DNA from: Oscillatoria sp. PCC 10802
GTDB lineage: Bacteria > Cyanobacteriota > Cyanobacteriia > Cyanobacteriales > Oscillatoriaceae
Assembly: GCF_000332335.1 (NCBI RefSeq)
Contig: NZ_KB235948.1
Coordinates: 2,804,513-2,848,670, forward strand
Direction of reading: 5' to 3'
Length of the DNA: 44,158 nucleotides
Shown in pieces: positions 5,524 to 12,101 of the stretch. The notes beneath the pieces are model-generated. The model saw nothing but the letters and a program-made list of their open reading frames with translations. It was not told the origin of the DNA and searched no databases. Within the stretch, counting starts at the first letter, position 1; every line of letters begins with the position of its first letter. Made by a program: the position numbers and the translations under genes.

Positions 5524-6315
5524 ATGCTGGAACTGTATCAATCTGAACTGTCCCCGTACAGCGAGAAAGTGCGGCTGATGCTGGACTACAAAGGGCTGGC
5601 GTACCGGAAAATTGAAGTCACACCGGGAGTGGGACAGCTTGAAGTGTACCGGCTCTCCGGTCAGCCTCAGGTGCCGGTGCTCAAGGACGGTAATGTAGTT
5701 GTAGCCGATTCTACAGAAATTGCCAAATATCTCGACCGGCAGTATCCGGACCGCCCCCTGATTCCCGCCGGTGACAAACAGCGGGGGCTGTGCCTGCTGA
5801 TGGAAGAATGGGCGGACGAGTCGATTGGGGCGAAAAGTCAGAAGCTGCTGTTTTCCGCCCTCAGTTCTGACGGCAGCTTCCGCAGCGCCCTGCTGCCACC
5901 GGCAACCCCCGATTTCCTCAGAACCCTCGTGGAAGCAGTTCCTGCGGACTTGCTCAAGGCGCTCGGCACCGGCATCGGCGCGGGACCTGACACCGTGAGC
6001 GCCGCAATGGAATCCATCAAGCAAGACTTGGAAGCCCTCTGCTTGCTGCTGCAAGACAGCCCCTATTTGGTGGGCTCCCAGCCGACTCTAGCAGATTTTG
6101 CCGTAGCGGGGCTGTCGATATTCCTCAAGTTCCCAGAAGGACCCTATCTGGATATCCCAGAAAGGCTCAAAGGCAAAGGCGTGTCCGGAATTGCTGACAA
6201 TTACCTGTACGCACCGTTTTTCTCCTGGCGGGCTCGCCTGTACGACCAATATCGCCAACCGCTGACGCCCACCGGCACCACCGGCTCTGCGCCAACTTCG
6301 ATTCAAATAGAATAG
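5524..6315 (+). CDS. Glutathione S-transferase family protein
   Basis: N-terminal thioredoxin-like GST fold (LELYQSELSPYSEKVRLMLDYKGLAYRKIEV...PQVPVLKDGNVVVADSTEIAKYLD); RBS AAGGAGA. Confidence 0.8.
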   Translation: MLELYQSELSPYSEKVRLMLDYKGLAYRKIEVTPGVGQLEVYRLSGQPQVPVLKDGNVVVADSTEIAKYLDRQYPDRPLIPAGDKQRGLCLLMEEWADESIGAKSQKLLFSALSSDGSFRSALLPPATPDFLRTLVEAVPADLLKALGTGIGAGPDTVSAAMESIKQDLEALCLLLQDSPYLVGSQPTLADFAVAGLSIFLKFPEGPYLDIPERLKGKGVSGIADNYLYAPFFSWRARLYDQYRQPLTPTGTTGSAPTSIQIE

Positions 6316-6865
6316 TCGGATCGGGGTGGGTAACGCCAGGGAAGCAACTGATTTCTGCGGGGCGCAAGAGTGAGGCGCGCCGGCACGACTGCTCAGAAGA
6401 GCGCCAGTGCGGTGCTTTTCGCAAGCGCTGGCACCCCACTTCTATCCGGTGCCTTGGGTGATGCGAACGGGAGCATCAAGGGTTGTGCGAGCGTTGCCCA
6501 TATCAATGCGACAGTGATTTTAGCCGGGGGTAGGAGGAGAAGAGTTTTGGCCAGCACCCATCCCGGAAATGGGATTGAAACAACGGCACCCAACCCCAGC
6601 AACAGAGCCCACCGGCTGCAAAAGATGCCGGTGGGTTTTGAATTTTCAACCGCCTCCCCTGAAGCGCCCCACGCCCTGACAGAGGCAATTTCCCCTCGCA
6701 CCGGACGCTCCCGCCCGCCAGCGAGTTCGGGCGGCTCCGCCTCCCATTCTAGCACAAGCCGGTTCAACCCCAGCTCCTGTTTCCAGAGAGACAAAACCTT
6801 GCCCCTGCTAGCTATAAAATCAAAATTGATCGTAAGATCAGCCAGAAGCTTGAGAGATTAGAGCG

Positions 6866-8599
6866 ATGAATCTAGACAAACCACTGGGATCGGTTATTCA
6901 AGGTTCTCTCAGTGAGGGGGTGGAAGTCCGGCTGCATCCTGATGTCTCCGTTGAAGAGATGCGGGTGGGCAAGTTTTTGGTAGTGCAAGGCGTGCGAGCG
7001 CAGTTTTTTTGCCTGCTCACCGATGTCATCCTGGGAACCTCTAGCCCCCGCATTCTTGCCGATCCCCCCCTCGCCAGCGACACTTTGCTGCAGGAAATTC
7101 TGGCGGGAAGCAGCACCTACGGCACCCTGCAGCTCGCCCTAATGCTGATGTTCACCCCACCAAACCCGGAAAAAGCCCTCCGCAACTCCGCCCTTAAGTC
7201 GAAAGCGAGCAAAGCGGCGAAATCAAAGCTGGCGTCGTTTGAGGCGCAAACCAGCAGTGACATGGAATTGCTGCCGGTGAAAACCATTCCCAGCCATTTC
7301 TCGCAGGTGTATGAAGCCACCGAGGAAGACTTTCGCTGCGTTTTCGGTTGGGAAGACGATCCCTACCGGCGCAACTTCGCGATCGGCAAACCCATTGACA
7401 TGGACGTGCCGGTGTGCGTCGATCTCGACCGGCTCGTCGAGCGCAGCAACGGAATCTTCGGCAAATCCGGCACCGGCAAGTCTTTTCTCACCCGCCTGCT
7501 GCTGTCTGGAATTATCCGCAAGCAAGCTGCAGTGAACCTGATTTTTGACATGCACTCCGAGTATGGCTGGGAAGCTGTTTCGGAAGGCAAGCAGTACAGC
7601 ACGGTCAAGGGGTTGCGCCAGCTGTTTCCCGGTCAAGTTGAAATTTACACCCTCGATCCCATTTCTACAAGAAGTCGCGGCGTGCGCGACGCCCAAGAAC
7701 TGTTTCTCAGCTACGACCAAATTGAGGTCGAAGATATCGCCCTGGTGCAGCGGGAGTTCAACCTTTCGGACGTCGCTATGGAAAATGCTTTGATCCTGCG
7801 CAACGAGCTTGGCAAATCCTGGATTAGAGATTTGCTGGGCATGAGCAGTGAGGACATTCGGGAATTCTGCGAGACGAAGAAAGGAAACAAAGCTTCGATT
7901 GGGGCGCTCCAGCGCAAGCTCGTGCGCCTGGAGGAGATGAAATACATGCGCGACGACAAGGCAGCTAAAAATTATCTCACCCATATTTTAAACTCCCTGG
8001 ATGCCGGCAAGCATGTGGTGATTGAGTTTGGCTCCCACGCGGATATGCTATCATATATGATGGTGACGAATATGATATCCCGGCGGATTCACGCTAGCTA
8101 TGTGCGCAATTCCGAGAAGTTCTTGCGCACCAAAAATCCCAACGATCGCCCCCGCCAGCTGGTGATTACTATCGAAGAAGCCCACCGCTTTCTCGACCCC
8201 TCTGTCGTCGGCTCCACGATTTTTGGCACCATCGCCCGCGAGATGCGGAAATATTTTGTTACCCTTTTGATAGTTGACCAGCGCCCGTCGGGCATTGATA
8301 ATGAGATTATGTCTCAGATTGGCACCCGCATCACCGCTTTGCTCAACGATCAAAAAGACATTGACGCCATTTTCACCGGCGTTGCGGGAGCTGCCGGTTT
8401 GCGCTCTGTTTTGGCCAAGCTGGATTCCAAGCAACAAGCGCTGGTTCTCGGACACGCCGTACCGATGCCGGTGGTGGTGCAAACTCGCCCCTACGACGAA
8501 ACTTTTTACAGGGAAATTGGCGAGATGGATTGGGAAAATATGCCCACAGAACTTGTGATGGAAGAAAGTGAATCCGCTATGGCGGATCTGGGGTTCTAG
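6866..8599 (+). CDS. HerA-like / DUF87 P-loop ATPase (FtsK-HerA superfamily)
   Basis: 577 aa; N-terminal barrel-like region, Walker A FGKSGTGKSFLT, Walker B-like LVITIEEAHRFL, LLIVDQRPS motif. TATAAAAT -10-like box at 6813. Confidence 0.7.
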   Translation: MNLDKPLGSVIQGSLSEGVEVRLHPDVSVEEMRVGKFLVVQGVRAQFFCLLTDVILGTSSPRILADPPLASDTLLQEILAGSSTYGTLQLALMLMFTPPNPEKALRNSALKSKASKAAKSKLASFEAQTSSDMELLPVKTIPSHFSQVYEATEEDFRCVFGWEDDPYRRNFAIGKPIDMDVPVCVDLDRLVERSNGIFGKSGTGKSFLTRLLLSGIIRKQAAVNLIFDMHSEYGWEAVSEGKQYSTVKGLRQLFPGQVEIYTLDPISTRSRGVRDAQELFLSYDQIEVEDIALVQREFNLSDVAMENALILRNELGKSWIRDLLGMSSEDIREFCETKKGNKASIGALQRKLVRLEEMKYMRDDKAAKNYLTHILNSLDAGKHVVIEFGSHADMLSYMMVTNMISRRIHASYVRNSEKFLRTKNPNDRPRQLVITIEEAHRFLDPSVVGSTIFGTIAREMRKYFVTLLIVDQRPSGIDNEIMSQIGTRITALLNDQKDIDAIFTGVAGAAGLRSVLAKLDSKQQALVLGHAVPMPVVVQTRPYDETFYREIGEMDWENMPTELVMEESESAMADLGF

Positions 8600-8896
8600 T
8601 AGGGGCACCGGGCATGGGTCATTGGGCATCATCGCATGGGGAAGGGGGCATCATCGCATGGGGTTAATTATAAACTTCTCTCCTAAAACCTAAAACCTAA
8701 CCCCTATAGCGTTTTTGATATTCCTGAGGTACTGAAAAGCCCGGTTTCTTAAAGAAACCGGGTTTGGCGCACTCCCCCAACTGAAACCCGCTAAAATGCC
8801 TAAAATATACAGCATTTAATTTGCACTTTTCATTTCTATTCTACCGTTCCGGGGCAGGCACGAAAACCCTCCAATACTGGCAAAATAACGCAATCA

Positions 8897-9106
8897 GGAG
8901 GCTCTGCCTCCTTTCAAGGGAAAAGCAGGTTAAAAGCATAACAGCTTATAGCAGTAGCCACTTAGGTCCGTACATTTCGGCCTCTTTTGCACCCCCGCAC
9001 TCCTGCTCCTATTGTCCTAACCCATATTACTACTGGCATATAGACGTAGGCCAGCGTCTGGCTGCCCTGAAGGTCTAATGTTTTAACCTAAGTGCATACT
9101 GCTATA
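8897..9106. repeat. Cluster of small repeat elements (family 3 element 8897-8937; two MITE copies 8945-9106)
   Basis: ggaggctctgcctcctttcaagggaaaagcaggttaaaagc; tatagcagtagccacttaggtcc ... cctaagtgcatactgctata. Confidence 0.65.
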
Positions 9107-9201
9107 ACTGCTGGGCATGAGGCATGGCAATTTTTAGGGGCGGTTTCATCCAAATCTTTGCCCGAAACAGCCAAATATTAATAAACTCAAAACAGCCAAT
9201 C

Positions 9202-9234
9202 CTGGCCTCCTGGCCTCCTGGCCTCCGGGCCTCT
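9202..9234. repeat. Octamer tandem repeat (CTGGCCTC)x4
   Basis: cctggcctcctggcctcctggcctccgggcctc. Confidence 0.6.
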
Positions 9235-10241
9235 ACAGGACCGGCGCGCCTCACGCCCAAGCTCAACGAGCGTCCTCAAATGTGTCTCACGAGAAAATGC
9301 GACGGGTAACAAACTTTCCAGTAACGCCAGCATAATAATAAAGTGCTGTGGAAATTGAGAGTGAGAGTCCACCGGCTCTGGTGCCGGTGCGGTGCTGCCC
9401 TCTCTGCTGCCGGCATCTGCCTTTGCCATATCTTTCCGCCAACAATACCATGCCGGCTGCAAATTGTCAATCCCCCGCCCGCTGACCGCAGCGCCGCTTG
9501 TGGTGGCGGGCGCAGCGTCACCCAAACGAAGAGCCGGTTGAGCAATCTCACCGTCTGGCTATCACCCTATTTTCCGCCCCCACAGGTTCGGCAATCCCGA
9601 GCCAAAGGGACTTCCCAGTTGCCTGTGGCTGCGGCATCATAGAAATCAGGAGGATTCTGCACTGCCAACCAGCAGCTATTAAGCCAGAATGGGACAGATG
9701 TTGCGTGTCAGGTCATAAGAAGCGCCCAGTGTCACCCACAACACACTCGCCGCCTGCGGAGTGGCGGGCTGCCTCTCACCGGGGCGGCCTTGCCGGTGCG
9801 GAGCGGCCTTCCGAGCGCCTAAATGTCAGTGTTCCCTCATCGGGGAGACCGCCGGCAAATCTGCCCTGCGGGGGATTTGCCCCTGATGCTTTTCCAATTA
9901 TATGTAGAAAAGCTTAATTTTACCGGCATTTTCGGGAAAGCTTAAGAATATAAGAGTTGAGGAGCAACCCAAGACTGTTTACAGGCGTCTAAATGTGGAA
10001 TACTGTAAAAAAAGGCAAACTCATACCGACTTCGAGTTTTAAGCACCTGTCACCCCGTACTGTCTGTTGCCGGTGTGGCGGCCAGGGGTGGCCGGTGTAG
10101 GGGCGGGCCACCGACGAAGACCGCCCTCCGACGCGAGCGACCTTCTAAGAGCTTCAACCGATTCAAACGCGCTCTCCTGCCCTGAGAGTGGGGCAGGTGA
10201 ATGAACCTTTAATTTTCATTTAGGGAGTTCACGACTCACTC

Positions 10242-11246
10242 ATGCCCACAGCAAAGAACCGTACCATGACCGCCAACCCCACTTACATGGGCGCACGGCC
10301 TTCCGCACCGGCTGATATCGTGCGCACCTATCTGCACGAGATCGGACGGGTGCCGCTGCTGACCCACGAGCAAGAAATTGTCTTGGGCAAGCAGGTGCAG
10401 CAAATGATGGCGCTAATTGAAGCGAAAGAAGCGCTGGCCTCCGAGCTCGACCGCGAACCCACTGCGCAAGAGTGGGCCGCTCGCCTGGAGCTTTCGGAAG
10501 CCGAGCTGAACCGGCTCGTACACCAGGGACAGCGTGCGAAGCAAAAGATGATTGAAGCCAACTTGCGCCTGGTGGTGGCGATCGCCAAGAAATACCAGAA
10601 GCGCAACCTGGAGCTGCTCGACCTGATCCAAGAAGGCACACTCGGTTTGGAACGAGGGGTAGAAAAATTTGACCCCACGCGGGGGTACAAGTTTTCCACC
10701 TACGCCTACTGGTGGATTCGCCAAGCCATCACCCGCGCCATCGCCCAGCAGGCTCGCACGATTCGCCTGCCGATCCACATCACCGAAAAACTGAACAAAA
10801 TCAAAAAAGTCCAGCGGGAGCTCACCCAGCAATTGGGGCGGAGCGCCACGCCGGCTGAAATTGGCCAAGCCCTCGATTTAGAGCCGTCTCAAATCCGGGA
10901 GTACCTGACCATGGCCCGCCACCCGATTTCCCTGGACATCCGCGTCGGGGACAACCACGACACGGAACTGCAAGACCTGCTCGAAGATGAAGCCGCCTCG
11001 CCGGAGAGCTTCACCACCCAGGAATTGCTGCGCCAAGACCTCGACAACCTGCTAGCCGAACTGACGCAGCAGCAGCGGGAAGTGATCACCCTGCGCTTTG
11101 GCCTCAAGGACGGTCGCGAGCTGTCCCTGGCCAAAGTCGGCGAGCGACTGAGCCTGAGCCGGGAGCGGGTGCGCCAGCTGGAACATCAAGCCTTGGCTCA
11201 GCTGCGCCGCCGGCAGGCCAACGTGCGGGAATATCTCGCCAGCTAA
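10242..11246 (+). CDS. RNA polymerase sigma factor, group 2 (RpoD/SigA family, no region 1.1)
   Basis: 334 aa with regions 1.2-4.2: [78 protein letters not shown], region 4 [25 protein letters not shown]. Confidence 0.9.
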
Positions 11247-11352: not shown

Positions 11353-11522
11353 ATTTTTGTAAACGAATTCGGCAATCAAAGGCGATGAGCGTGAAGGCTT
11401 TCGCTGGCAACTGGGCGCAAATCCGCCCGGATTCTCAACTCAGAAGGTCTTAGTGAAAAACCTAGAGGGAAACAACCAGGGTGCACAACCGGTTTGTCCG
11501 CTTTAGTTCGCCGTGGCATAAA

Positions 11523-12101
11523 ATGCTAAACTGGTTTGACAGGCTCCTAGCCGCGCTCCTCCCAGCTTTGGGGCTAGCCGCGAATGGCCTCTGCACCGCA
11601 CTCACGGCTTCCCACGCCCTTGCGGCTTTTGGCTCAGAGATTGCCCACCCCCCCCCAAAGCAAAGGGTTCACCCCACTGCCGGCGGCGGACCGGTTCTGG
11701 CCCCCGCAATGCCTGCTGAGGAACAGCCTTTAGCCGATGGGATTTACCACTACGGCGAGTCCGCTGAGCCCGAACAGATTGGCAAAGCCTATATGGTGTT
11801 TGAGGTGCGCCAGGGCTTAGCCATAGGAGCCTTTTACATGCCCAGCTCCTCCTTTGACTGTTTTTACGGCAGCGCTTGGCCGCAGCGACTCGACCTCACC
11901 ATTGTCAGCACCTACGAACAGACGGCCTACACCTACTCCGTCCCCCTCGACGAGTTTCAGCCCGTCCCCACCGTCAGCGAGAACGACGAGCGGATCTTGA
12001 GGGTGTGCACCGGCACCTATCAAGAGCGGGTGTGGGAGCGGCAAACTCCCCAGCGCCTAGCCCCAAGCCCCCTCAATACTCAATCCCCGGTTGCGCCCTG
12101 A
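11523..12101 (+). CDS. Hypothetical secreted protein (start uncertain; ORF track begins at a GTG at 11481)
   Basis: N-terminal signal-peptide-like MLNWFDRLLAALLPALGLAANGLC; no recognised domain; 3' end overlaps the cobO 3' end convergently. Confidence 0.4.
   Translation: MLNWFDRLLAALLPALGLAANGLCTALTASHALAAFGSEIAHPPPKQRVHPTAGGGPVLAPAMPAEEQPLADGIYHYGESAEPEQIGKAYMVFEVRQGLAIGAFYMPSSSFDCFYGSAWPQRLDLTIVSTYEQTAYTYSVPLDEFQPVPTVSENDERILRVCTGTYQERVWERQTPQRLAPSPLNTQSPVAP

What the first reader, a model, noticed from the sequence alone, without database searches (positions are those of the whole stretch)
6316..8599. Orphan HerA/DUF87-like ATPase with a 550-bp gene-less leader
The 577-aa FtsK-HerA superfamily ATPase has Walker A GKSGTGKS, Walker B-like LVITIEEAHRF and an N-terminal barrel-like region. 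It stands alone. I see no NurA, SIR2, DUF4297 or other known partner on either side. The 550 bp upstream contains only GC-rich shadow ORFs, including a possible 133-aa minus-strand membrane-like ORF at 6393-6794. HerA ATPases are cores of several anti-phage and DNA-end-processing systems, so a solitary copy, or one with an unrecognised small partner, deserves a look.
Basis: partly seen in the sequence, partly recalled or inferred. Interest (0 to 1): 0.5.

Follow-up and report, generated by a model that had tools for sequence, protein, structure and literature searches.

The report
Conserved cyanobacterial HerA-like ATPase gene
This is the Kamptonema copy of a HerA-type ring ATPase found in cyanobacteria of many orders; it is an annotated chromosomal gene of untested function, not a hidden phage-defence system, and the 550 bp in front of it is ordinary intergenic DNA.

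Summary
The ORF is real: 6866-8599 (+), 577 aa, HAS-barrel plus DUF87/HerA ATPase, with Walker A, Walker B and DQRPS motifs intact. Its predicted fold matches solved HerA hexamers. It is not a defence-island orphan. It is 100% identical to an annotated Kamptonema formosum protein, and relatives were found in at least 579 species genomes. The best 80 are 71-76% identical, nearly all labelled cyanobacteria. By a published table these include Sll0284, Alr3799 and Synpcc7942_0981.

The neighbourhood is housekeeping and partly conserved. A group-2 sigma factor lies downstream on the same strand in 40 of 66 loci.

The 550-bp "leader" is gene-less but is not shown to be a leader. Only two blocks are conserved in close relatives: the intrinsic terminator of the upstream GST gene, and about 70 bp directly before the ATG. 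The rest is lineage-specific filler. Both flagged ORFs look non-coding.

New here: in a non-cyanobacterial sister clade the same ATPase family is translationally coupled to a ~197-aa protein and linked to a NurA nuclease. Neither lies near the gene in 83 cyanobacterial loci.

Most likely it is a soluble hexameric DNA translocase in recombination or DNA-end processing, with any partner unlinked. Function untested. Interest is low.

The parts
5524..6315 (+). Upstream neighbour: glutathione S-transferase-like gene (263 aa). A context gene, not a functional partner.
   Evidence: Pfam GST_N_3 at E 1e-18 and GST_C_2. Found upstream on the same strand in 23 of 74 cyanobacterial loci, with a GST-to-HerA gap usually of 85-330 bp.
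6316..6602 (.). Variable, non-coding spacer between the GST stop codon and its terminator. Lineage-specific filler.
   Evidence: Absent from L085 (HerA 92% identical). Only 6318-6465 is weakly shared with L086 (71% over 148 nt). No family or Rfam hits.
6603..6650 (+). Intrinsic terminator of the GST gene: a 14-bp stem (core CCCACCGGC / GCCGGTGGG) with a 10-nt loop, followed by UUUUGAAUUUU.
   Evidence: RNA fold -27.1 kcal/mol, z -4.34, 0 of 200 shuffles as stable. 98% identical over 50 nt in L085 and 92% over 72 nt in L086, while the flanks are not conserved. The consensus scanner missed it because the loop exceeds 8 nt.
6658..6795 (.). Second stretch without similarity to close relatives. It makes up most of the flagged minus-strand ORF's 5' part.
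   Evidence: No BLASTN match in L085 or L086. L085 carries unrelated sequence at this position and L086 lacks the stretch.
6796..6865 (+). Conserved proximal upstream block: candidate promoter plus short 5'UTR. It has -10-like hexamers TATAAA(AT) at 6813-6820 and TAAGAT at 6833-6838, and purine-rich GAGAG..GAG before the ATG.
   Evidence: 89-90% identical to L085 and L086 over 70 nt, and partly conserved in L087. No stable structure (z +0.37). The promoter role is inferred; the two-hexamer scan found no canonical site.
6866..8599 (+). HerA-clade ATPase gene, 577 aa. By a published table its family includes Synechocystis Sll0284, Anabaena Alr3799 and S. elongatus Synpcc7942_0981.
   Evidence: 100% identical to P0001, 'helicase HerA domain-containing protein [Kamptonema formosum]'. 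Pfam. AF2 model pLDDT 85.5, pTM 0.84. Foldseek best hits are HerA chains. Family names come from PMC7766704; orthology of those three proteins to this one was not checked by sequence.
6887..7138 (+). N-terminal HAS-barrel domain (aa 8-91). In solved HerA complexes this ring is the docking face for partner proteins.
   Evidence: Pfam PF09378, 34.6 bits. Beta strands at 8-58 and 84-96 with pLDDT ~90. G8, G13, L15, E30, G35, G42 and F48 are invariant across phyla.
7154..7264 (+). Low-complexity Lys/Ser/Ala-rich linker (aa 97-133) that is longer in the cyanobacterial sequences. Variable in length and partly low-confidence in the model.
   Evidence: Alignment A2 shows a longer, variable insertion in the cyanobacterial rows. 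pLDDT 46-66 over aa 101-130, below 50 at 118-127.
7460..7483 (+). Walker A / P-loop, GKSGTGKS (aa 199-206).
   Evidence: G199, G202, T203, G204 and K205 are invariant in 41 sequences from several phyla.
8159..8191 (+). Walker B region, LVITIEEAHRF (aa 432-442).
   Evidence: E437, E438, A439 and H440 are invariant.
8273..8290 (+). VDQRPS motif (aa 470-475). Candidate arginine finger/sensor of the ring ATPase.
   Evidence: D471, Q472, R473, P474 and S475 are invariant. This is the best-aligning stretch to all solved HerA sequences. Calling R473 the arginine finger is an inference.
8740..8762 (.). Palindromic GC-rich hairpin 140 nt after the stop codon. Possible bidirectional terminator.
   Evidence: Listed as terminator-like on the minus strand. 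On the plus strand it is followed only by TTTGG. Not tested further.
10242..11246 (+). Downstream syntenic neighbour: group-2-type sigma-70 factor (334 aa).
   Evidence: Pfam regions 1.2, 2, 3 and 4. Same-strand downstream neighbour in 40 of 66 cyanobacterial loci, median gap 779 bp. In Anabaena, alr3799 and alr3800 (SigB2) carry consecutive locus tags.

Best explanation
The gene at 6866-8599 is the Kamptonema formosum member of a chromosomal HerA-clade ATPase family found in cyanobacteria of many orders. By a published table the family includes Sll0284, Alr3799 and Synpcc7942_0981.

Shown here:
- It has a HAS-barrel, a RecA-like ATPase core with intact Walker A, Walker B and DQRPS motifs, and a HerA-like predicted fold.
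- No membrane anchor is evident.
- Relatives occur in hundreds of species at over 70% identity, in housekeeping surroundings, and the sampled cyanobacterial sequences form one clade.
- It most often sits just upstream of a SigB-type group-2 sigma factor gene.

Inferred:
- Like every solved HerA, it assembles into a ring (hexamer) that uses ATP to thread double-stranded DNA through its pore.
- Members of a sister clade of the same family are operon-linked to a NurA nuclease. The S. elongatus gene named as its ortholog is dispensable, mildly UV-induced, and slightly needed when incoming DNA must recombine. The most likely job is therefore DNA-end processing or recombination.
- Any nuclease partner would be encoded elsewhere in the genome, or lost.

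The 550 bp upstream is ordinary intergenic DNA. It runs: GST stop codon, filler, GST intrinsic terminator, filler, then a ~70-bp conserved promoter/5'UTR block. It hides no partner gene.
For: Identity and family:
- Pfam HAS-barrel plus DUF87.
- 100% match to the annotated K. formosum protein.
- Foldseek best hits are HerA from archaeal HerA-NurA, SIR2-HerA and TdpAB, E 1e-25 to 1e-24, TM ~0.6.
- Catalytic motifs invariant across phyla.

Core-gene status:
- At least 579 species genomes encode a relative. The 80 kept loci are 71-76% identical and nearly all are labelled cyanobacteria.
- The cyanobacterial clade is monophyletic in a neighbour-joining tree, 11 of 11 sampled sequences.
- Sll0284 has relative conservation 0.93 in PMC8136920.

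Housekeeping synteny:
- Sigma factor downstream in 40/66 loci and GST upstream in 23/74.
- All window neighbours are metabolic or regulatory genes.

DNA-processing inference:
- Non-cyanobacterial members are 43-48% identical to this protein.
- They have a NurA gene (PF09376, E 1.7e-30) upstream in 21/31 loci with enough sequence.
- They have a ~197-aa gene upstream in 48/65 loci, with a 4-nt overlap in 34 of the 53 pairs.
- Synpcc7942_0981 is non-essential, with log2FC +0.83 two hours after UV, padj 1.25e-7.
- Its fitness is -0.34 (FDR 0.0044) in a natural-transformation screen, and -0.36 (FDR 0.0068) in a conjugation-plus-recombination screen.

Leader anatomy.
Against: - No biochemical or genetic test of this family exists in the papers I could search.
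- The NurA linkage lies in the other superclade of the family. The cyanobacterial clade groups with solitary Gemmatimonadota, Bacteroidota and Chlorobi-like members. NurA partnership may never have applied to this branch.
- I could not search a whole cyanobacterial genome for an unlinked NurA or small partner.
- Loss of Synpcc7942_0981 does not sensitise to UV: fitness +0.07 to +0.14.
- The transformation and conjugation effects are small and below the authors' own thresholds.
- Orthology of Synpcc7942_0981, Sll0284 and Alr3799 to this protein rests on a review table and shared domain annotation, not on a sequence comparison made here.
- Hexamer formation and DNA translocation are inferred from fold, not shown.
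- The promoter assignment lacks a canonical -35 element and lacks transcript data.
Confidence: 0.7

Rival explanations
1. It is the ATPase core of an anti-phage defence system (SIR2-HerA, DUF4297-HerA or a new type). The effector would be unrecognised, possibly a small protein encoded in the 550-bp upstream region.
For: PADLOC HerA models match; the best is PDLC04105 at 105.5 bits, E 6.6e-31. Defence HerAs are among the closest solved structures.
Against: - The matches are family-level only. NCBIfam anti-phage HerA equivalogs score 73 and 62.5 bits against cut-offs of 800 and 850, and sequence identity to solved defence HerAs is 12-18%.
- Distribution is the opposite of a defence gene: hundreds of species at over 70% identity with conserved synteny.
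- The neighbours are GST and a sigma factor.
- The leader ORFs are absent from close relatives and look non-coding.
Confidence: 0.03
2. It is the cyanobacterial stand-in for FtsK: a DNA pump that clears or segregates chromosomes at division. A review reports an FtsK homolog so far only in Anabaena, where it is plasmid-borne.
For: - A cyanobacterial morphogenesis review lists Sll0284, Synpcc7942_0981 and Alr3799 in its FtsK/SpoIIIE row. It states that an FtsK homolog was otherwise identified only in Anabaena (All7666, on a plasmid).
- It belongs to the same ATPase superfamily.
- It is widely conserved in a phylum described as lacking FtsK elsewhere.
Against: - Pfam FtsK_SpoIIIE scores 13.6 bits against a cut-off of 24.
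- There is no hydrophobic anchor. The maximum Kyte-Doolittle 19-residue average is 1.59, inside a confidently modelled beta-strand. No gamma-domain-like extension is seen.
- The same family occurs in other phyla.
- The S. elongatus gene is listed as non-essential.
- The Anabaena 'FtsK' used in divisome interaction assays is All7666, not Alr3799.
- Sister-clade members are linked to NurA, not to division genes.
Confidence: 0.12
3. It acts on RNA or ribonucleoprotein complexes rather than DNA, as suggested by its shortlisting as an RNA-chaperone candidate in Synechocystis Grad-seq.
For: Sll0284 sediments in a large complex (peak fraction 11). It passed the paper's filters, with an RNA-binding SVM score of 0.64.
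Against: [quoted passage not shown]
- All solved relatives listed with a bound nucleic acid are DNA complexes.
- The sister-clade partner is a DNA nuclease family.
- Sedimentation as a large particle is what a ~380-kDa hexamer would give anyway (inference).
Confidence: 0.05

Closest known systems
Cyanobacterial Sll0284 / Alr3799 / Synpcc7942_0981 family (COG0433, KEGG K06915), annotated 'helicase HerA domain-containing protein' or 'DUF87 domain-containing protein'
   Same: Same length class and domain order (HAS-barrel plus DUF87). The window protein is 71-77% identical to homologs from many cyanobacterial orders. Anabaena alr3799 and alr3800 (SigB2) carry consecutive locus tags, which parallels the window's HerA-then-sigma order.
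   Different: Nothing of note; this looks like an ordinary ortholog. The only local peculiarity is a longer than usual upstream gap: 550 bp against a median of 171 bp. I did not align Sll0284, Alr3799 or Synpcc7942_0981 themselves, because their sequences were not held. Orthology rests on the review table and family-wide identity.
Archaeal and Deinococcus-Thermus HerA of the HerA-NurA DNA-end resection complex (S. solfataricus 4d2i, T. kodakarensis 9x1m, Thermus HepA)
   Same: Same fold and domain order, with intact ATPase motifs. A sister clade of the same bacterial family keeps a NurA gene in its operon neighbourhood.
   Different: - Only 16-18% identity to the solved HerAs.
- NCBIfam HerA equivalogs score far below cut-off: 62.8 against 970 and 72.7 against 800.
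- No NurA adjacent here or in 83 cyanobacterial loci.
- No Mre11/Rad50 genes among the window neighbours examined.
- In Thermus, nurA directly precedes and overlaps hepA.
Anti-phage HerA systems (SIR2-HerA/Nezha 8wld, 8j4u; DUF4297-HerA 8ziq, 9c1m; TdpAB 8wfd)
   Same: HerA fold and ring-ATPase motifs. PADLOC HerA models give partial hits.
   Different: No effector gene next to it, and no defence-island context. Broad rather than patchy distribution with strong conservation. Equivalog models are not met.
FtsK/SpoIIIE and E. coli YjgR (DUF853, Pfam HerA_C) ATPases
   Same: Same FtsK-HerA superfamily of ring-shaped pumping ATPases. A review footnote files the cyanobacterial proteins under the 'YjgR family of the HerA clade'.
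   Different: Pfam FtsK_SpoIIIE scores 13.6 bits (cut-off 24) and HerA_C/DUF853 scores 13.9 bits (cut-off 22). Both are below threshold, whereas DUF87 scores 123 bits. No membrane anchor is evident.

Membership tests
HerA clade of the FtsK-HerA superfamily | N-terminal HAS-barrel domain | tested here: met
   PF09378 at 34.6 bits against a cut-off of 25.2, aa 8-91. The AF2 model shows a beta-barrel-type strand set at pLDDT ~90.
HerA clade of the FtsK-HerA superfamily | Central RecA-like ATPase domain (DUF87) with Walker A and Walker B | tested here: met
   PF01935 at 123.2 bits against a cut-off of 23.2. GKSGTGKS at 199-206 and IEEAH at 436-440, invariant across phyla.
HerA clade of the FtsK-HerA superfamily | Overall fold similar to solved HerA protomers | tested here: met
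   The top 50 Foldseek PDB hits are all HerA-family chains (HerA, TdpA), E 1.6e-25 to 1.7e-18, TM 0.5-0.75.
HerA clade of the FtsK-HerA superfamily | Hexameric ring that translocates DNA with DNA-stimulated ATPase activity | not testable with these tools
   Needs purified protein. Only a monomer was modelled.
HerA-NurA DNA-end resection system | HerA equivalog-level sequence match | tested here: not met
   NF040819 scores 62.8 bits against a cut-off of 970. NF040937 scores 72.7 bits against 800.
HerA-NurA DNA-end resection system | NurA nuclease gene adjacent or in the same operon | tested here: not met
   A NurA HMM built from sister-clade neighbours finds nothing in the 44-kb window or in 87 cyanobacterial locus records at E<=1, apart from one chance-level 9.8-bit hit. 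It is present in the sister clade in 21/31 loci.
HerA-NurA DNA-end resection system | NurA encoded elsewhere in the same genome | not testable with these tools
Anti-phage HerA systems (SIR2-HerA, DUF4297-HerA) | Equivalog-level match to anti-phage HerA | tested here: not met
   NF042943 scores 73 bits against a cut-off of 800. NF042944 scores 62.5 bits against 850. PADLOC hits are mostly to the C-terminal half of the models.
Anti-phage HerA systems (SIR2-HerA, DUF4297-HerA) | Adjacent effector gene (SIR2, DUF4297 or another nuclease) | tested here: not met
   The flanking genes are GST and a sigma factor. The leader ORFs have no hits and are not conserved.
Anti-phage HerA systems (SIR2-HerA, DUF4297-HerA) | Patchy distribution and variable, island-like context | tested here: not met
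   At least 579 species genomes hold a relative and the kept loci are 71-76% identical. Sigma-factor synteny is conserved in 40/66 loci.
FtsK/SpoIIIE | FtsK_SpoIIIE ATPase domain above threshold | tested here: not met
   PF01580 scores 13.6 bits against a cut-off of 24.
FtsK/SpoIIIE | N-terminal membrane anchor | tested here: not met
   The maximum Kyte-Doolittle 19-residue average is 1.59, at aa 38, inside a confidently modelled beta-strand. This is a crude test; no dedicated TM predictor was run.
YjgR / DUF853 (Pfam HerA_C) | HerA_C (PF05872) domain above threshold | tested here: not met
   13.9 bits against a cut-off of 22. The review's 'YjgR family' label is not borne out at Pfam level.

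The most novel reading that the evidence does not exclude
The Sll0284-type HerA of cyanobacteria may be a partner-less, free-standing DNA pump with a lineage-specific role, rather than half of a nuclease machine. One possibility is handling the many chromosome copies of polyploid cells in a phylum where a review finds no chromosomal FtsK. Another is a stress function coupled to the adjacent SigB-type sigma factor. A weaker variant: it still works with an unlinked homolog of the ~197-aa protein and the NurA nuclease that accompany it in the sister clade. That would define an undescribed three-component bacterial HerA system.
Probability: 0.12. Interest if true: 0.6.

Novelty: already known. Interest (0 to 1): 0.22.

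Why it matters
For this window, very little. The gene is already annotated and is not a candidate new defence system.

The family deserves some attention for three reasons:
- It is a strongly conserved ring ATPase found across many cyanobacterial orders, with relatives in several other phyla.
- No experiment on it turned up in the library I could search.
- Comparative data now give a concrete lead, namely NurA and a small coupled protein in a sister clade, plus weak Tn-seq effects on DNA uptake and recombination.

Knowing its role would fill a gap in cyanobacterial DNA repair and recombination. That matters for genetic engineering of these polyploid organisms.

Tried and rejected
- **Hidden partner in the leader.** Rejected: no family hits, non-coding codon usage, and not conserved in relatives whose HerA is 91-92% identical.
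- **Riboswitch or ncRNA in the leader.** Rfam finds nothing at gathering thresholds or at E<=1. The only structured element is a terminator hairpin.
- **Leader as a repeated mobile element.** There is no second copy in the window.
- **The 479-aa gene upstream in Microcoleus (L002) as a partner.** It is a pentapeptide-repeat protein unrelated to anything in the leader.
- **Looking for the sister-clade partners near cyanobacterial copies.** HMMs for the small protein, NurA and patatin found nothing.
- **Looking for the small partner in cyanobacteria database-wide.** The profile search returned 4581 homologs, but the 120 listed are all close relatives (the only taxon named is Dehalococcoidia), so it is uninformative.
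- **Structure of the small partner.** The AF2 model is unusable, pLDDT 53.6.
- **Fold search against AFDB50.** The library was unavailable.
- **Iyer et al. 2004.** The paper is not held.
- **Taxon names for distant representatives.** Cluster look-up gave almost none.
- **Divisome link via Anabaena 'FtsK'.** That protein is All7666, not Alr3799.
- **Essentiality table in PMC5464585.** The locus is not listed.
Full report

The ORF table shows an ATG-initiated ORF at 6866-8599 (+) of 577 aa.
- Pfam finds a HAS-barrel at aa 8-91 (34.6 bits, cut-off 25.2) and the HerA central domain DUF87 at aa 172-408 (123.2 bits, cut-off 23.2).
GKSGTGKS is at aa 199-206 and LVITIEEAHRF at aa 432-442. There is also a VDQRPS motif at aa 470-475.
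- The stretch 6316-6865 has no called gene in the public gene call of the same contig.
- Its two long ORFs, 6370-6861 (+) and 6393-6794 (-), have no Pfam, NCBIfam or PADLOC hit.

The descriptive part of the finding therefore holds. The window comes from Kamptonema formosum: the protein is 100% identical to P0001, 'helicase HerA domain-containing protein [Kamptonema formosum]'.

**2. What the 'leader' is**

I fetched close relatives and measured their GST-to-HerA gaps.

| Locus | HerA identity to the window protein | GST-to-HerA gap |
|---|---|---|
| window | - | 550 bp |
| L085 | 92% | 301 bp |
| L086 | 91% | 503 bp |
| L087 | 77% | 167 bp |
| L004 | 75% | 1296 bp |

- Across 74 cyanobacterial loci the gap to the nearest upstream ORF has a median of 171 bp (IQR 100-233). 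Only 6 loci reach 500 bp.
- BLASTN and MAFFT show that only two pieces of the window's gap are conserved in L085 and L086.
- The first piece, about 6585-6657, folds into a 14-bp hairpin (6603-6640) followed by UUUUGAAUUUU. Its energy is -27.1 kcal/mol, z -4.34, and none of 200 shuffles is as stable.
- That is a textbook intrinsic terminator on the plus strand. In L085 it sits about 30 nt after the GST stop codon, so it terminates the GST gene.
- The second piece is the last ~70 bp before the ATG (6796-6865). It is AT-rich, has -10-like hexamers at 6813-6820 and 6833-6838, and has no stable structure (z +0.37). I read this as promoter plus short 5'UTR. That is an inference: the two-hexamer consensus scan found no site there and I have no transcript data.
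- Everything else (6316-6584 and 6658-6795) is missing or different in the relatives.
- The two flagged ORFs lie mostly in those variable parts. Their codon-usage log-odds are -0.10 and +0.03 per codon. Bona fide shadow ORFs inside HerA and GST score -0.03 to +0.02, and real genes in the window score 0.20-0.48.
- Rfam finds nothing, even at E<=1.

Conclusion: this is an ordinary intergenic region, inflated by lineage-specific insertions. There is no hidden partner.

**3. What the protein is**

- An AlphaFold2 model built on a 41-sequence alignment is confident (pLDDT 85.5, pTM 0.84).
- Foldseek against the PDB returns only HerA-family chains at the top. These include T. kodakarensis HerA-NurA (9x1m, E 1.6e-25), SIR2-HerA (8wld), S. 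solfataricus HerA (4d2i) and TdpA (8wfd), at 16-18% identity and TM about 0.6.
- Sequence searches of the PDB agree.
- It is thus a HerA-clade protein roughly equidistant from every characterised subfamily.
- It fails all equivalog models: archaeal HerA 62.8 bits against 970 and 72.7 against 800; anti-phage HerA 73 against 800 and 62.5 against 850.
- It also fails Pfam FtsK_SpoIIIE (13.6 bits against 24) and HerA_C/DUF853 (13.9 against 22). A review's label 'YjgR family' is therefore not supported at Pfam level.
- No membrane anchor is evident.

**4. Distribution and context**

The 80 best are 71-76% identical over the full length, and nearly all are labelled cyanobacteria. They include Microcoleus, Tychonema, Leptolyngbya-like forms, Chroococcidiopsis, Moorena and Hydrococcus.
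- Such identity across orders means strong purifying selection on a vertically inherited gene. Defence genes behave the opposite way.
- I clustered the ORFs of 83 non-redundant loci:
  - A group-2-type sigma factor gene lies downstream on the same strand in 40 of 66 loci with enough sequence (median gap 779 bp).
  - A conserved ~191-206-aa protein with no family match lies beyond it in 28 loci.
  - The GST is upstream in 23 of 74 loci.
  - A pentapeptide-repeat protein is upstream in 24 loci.
- In the window all neighbours between 1783 and 16848 are metabolic or regulatory.
- The literature names family members Sll0284, Synpcc7942_0981 and Alr3799 (PMC7766704). I did not align those three sequences myself. 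Alr3800 is SigB2 (PMC2758279), and its consecutive locus tag suggests the synteny reaches Nostocales.

**5. Beyond cyanobacteria**

- An exhaustive search of 1.84 billion representatives found 244 clusters at E<=1e-30.
- A second homology search from a 38%-identical member listed relatives named as Chloroflexia, Anaerolineae, Thermodesulfobacteriota, Gemmatimonadetes, Rhodothermales, Bacteroidota, Chloroherpetonaceae and Chthonomonadaceae. In the alignment built from these hits the non-cyanobacterial members are 36-51% identical to the window protein (most 43-51%), and the catalytic residues are invariant.
- In 80 metagenomic loci of non-cyanobacterial members (43-48% identical to the window protein) I found a striking conserved context:
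  - A ~197-aa gene lies immediately upstream in 48 of 65 loci, with a 4-nt overlap in 34 of the 53 pairs.
  - A 399-aa NurA-domain gene (PF09376, E 1.7e-30) lies 1.3-2.6 kb upstream in 21 of 31 loci.
  - A patatin gene lies just downstream in 19 of 55 loci.
- The small protein has no Pfam or NCBIfam family. It shows a faint HAS-barrel resemblance (E 0.0038 for the L090 copy).
- HMMs of all three find nothing in the window or within 6 kb of the gene in the cyanobacterial loci.
- Members from a Chloroflexia MAG (followed by PriA), Gemmatimonadota, a Rhodothermales-like genome and a Chlorobi-like genome are solitary as well.
- In a neighbour-joining tree the cyanobacterial sequences are monophyletic. 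They group with these solitary forms, while the NurA-linked forms make up the other superclade.
- The NurA link is therefore a real functional clue for the family. It is not proven to apply to the cyanobacterial branch.

**6. Functional data from the literature**

- No paper in the searchable library tests the protein directly.
- Grad-seq places Sll0284 in a fast-sedimenting complex. It lists the protein as a conserved (0.93) uncharacterised nucleic-acid-binding candidate, 'less so with RNA' (PMC8136920).
- Supplementary tables give values for S. elongatus Synpcc7942_0981:
  - It is non-essential.
  - Its transcript rises 1.8-fold two hours after strong UV (padj 1.25e-7).
  - Transposon mutants are not UV-sensitive: fitness +0.07, +0.14 and +0.10 (PMC9659335).
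  - Fitness is -0.34 (T -3.18, FDR 0.0044) among natural transformants (PMC7125226).
  - Fitness is -0.36 (T -3.66, FDR 0.0068) among exconjugants that must recombine DNA into the chromosome (PMC10653904).
- These effects are small and below the authors' own thresholds. They point the same way as the competence defect of Thermus HepA mutants (PMC5448004).
- The 'FtsK' used in Anabaena divisome interaction assays is the plasmid-borne All7666, not Alr3799.

**7. Best explanation and rivals**

Most likely (0.7 overall; near-certain for identity, about even for mechanism): this is a soluble, ring-forming HerA-clade ATPase that threads DNA. It is a conserved housekeeping gene of cyanobacteria and acts in DNA-end processing or recombination. 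Any nuclease partner is encoded elsewhere or has been lost.

Rivals:
- An FtsK-like segregation pump (0.12). This is attractive because a review finds no chromosomal FtsK in cyanobacteria. It is weakened by non-essentiality, the lack of an evident anchor, and the family's presence in other phyla.
- An RNA-directed role (0.05).
- A defence system with a hidden effector (0.03).

**8. Novelty and verdict**

- The gene is annotated, and its family has been noted in print as conserved and uncharacterised. For this window the finding is 'already known' and ordinary.
- The only unusual local feature, the long upstream gap, is explained by insertions around a terminator and a promoter.
- The worthwhile by-product is the NurA plus small-protein operon in the sister clade. 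It gives a testable lead to the function of a widely conserved cyanobacterial protein.

Noticed in passing
window 9276-10241: About 1 kb of ORF-free DNA upstream of the group-2 sigma factor gene (10242-11246). It is 80.6% identical over 1013 bp to relative L086, and the block 9930-10033 also matches L087 and L030. The HerA-to-sigma gap is never below 370 bp in 44 loci (median 779). This suggests a long regulated 5'UTR or an ncRNA for the sigB-type gene. Rfam finds nothing.
   Followed up: partly
window 6866-11246; loci L002-L087: Conserved same-strand pairing of the HerA-like gene with a SigB-type group-2 sigma factor gene in 40 of 66 cyanobacterial loci. In Anabaena, alr3799 and alr3800 (SigB2) carry consecutive locus tags. 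I found no mention of this linkage in the papers read.
   Followed up: partly
window 11481-12101 (+): A 206-aa protein with no Pfam or NCBIfam match, conserved downstream of the sigma factor gene in 28 cyanobacterial loci (37-50% identity by tblastn). It has a hydrophobic N-terminus.
   Followed up: partly
L091-L170, e.g. L119 1159-7390: A non-cyanobacterial sister clade (the one named hit is Dehalococcoidia) has a conserved gene string: NurA (399 aa), then 1-2 kb of variable small ORFs, then a ~197-aa protein overlapping the HerA start by 4 nt, then HerA, then patatin. The 197-aa family has 4581 database homologs, no Pfam or NCBIfam model, and a faint HAS-barrel signal. The AF2 model failed, pLDDT 53.6.
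   Followed up: partly
L088 4001-8609; L091 4986-9568: In a Chloroflexia MAG (L088) the HerA-family gene is followed within 23 nt by the primosomal helicase gene priA. A related metagenome locus (L091, 76% identical) has a gene of similar size starting at the HerA stop codon, which I did not annotate. This is another hint at a DNA replication or repair role.
   Followed up: no
L086 4498-4680: The GST-HerA spacer of this relative carries an extra ~180-bp insertion with long C-runs and G-runs forming hairpins (CCCCCCCTAGCCCCCCC...GGGGGGGG). It looks like a small repeat element, which shows how these intergenic gaps grow.
   Followed up: no
window 8740-8762: A perfect 10-bp palindromic hairpin (CCCGGTTTCT-TAA-AGAAACCGGG) 140 nt after the HerA stop codon. 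It is flanked by T/A runs on both strands and may be a bidirectional terminator.
   Followed up: no
window 8600-9275: The first ~680 bp after the HerA stop codon are largely absent from relatives L085 and L086, where only short blocks match (8600-8706 and 9105-9186). They contain direct repeats such as 'catcatcgcatgggg' occurring twice. This is probably another lineage-specific insertion.
   Followed up: no
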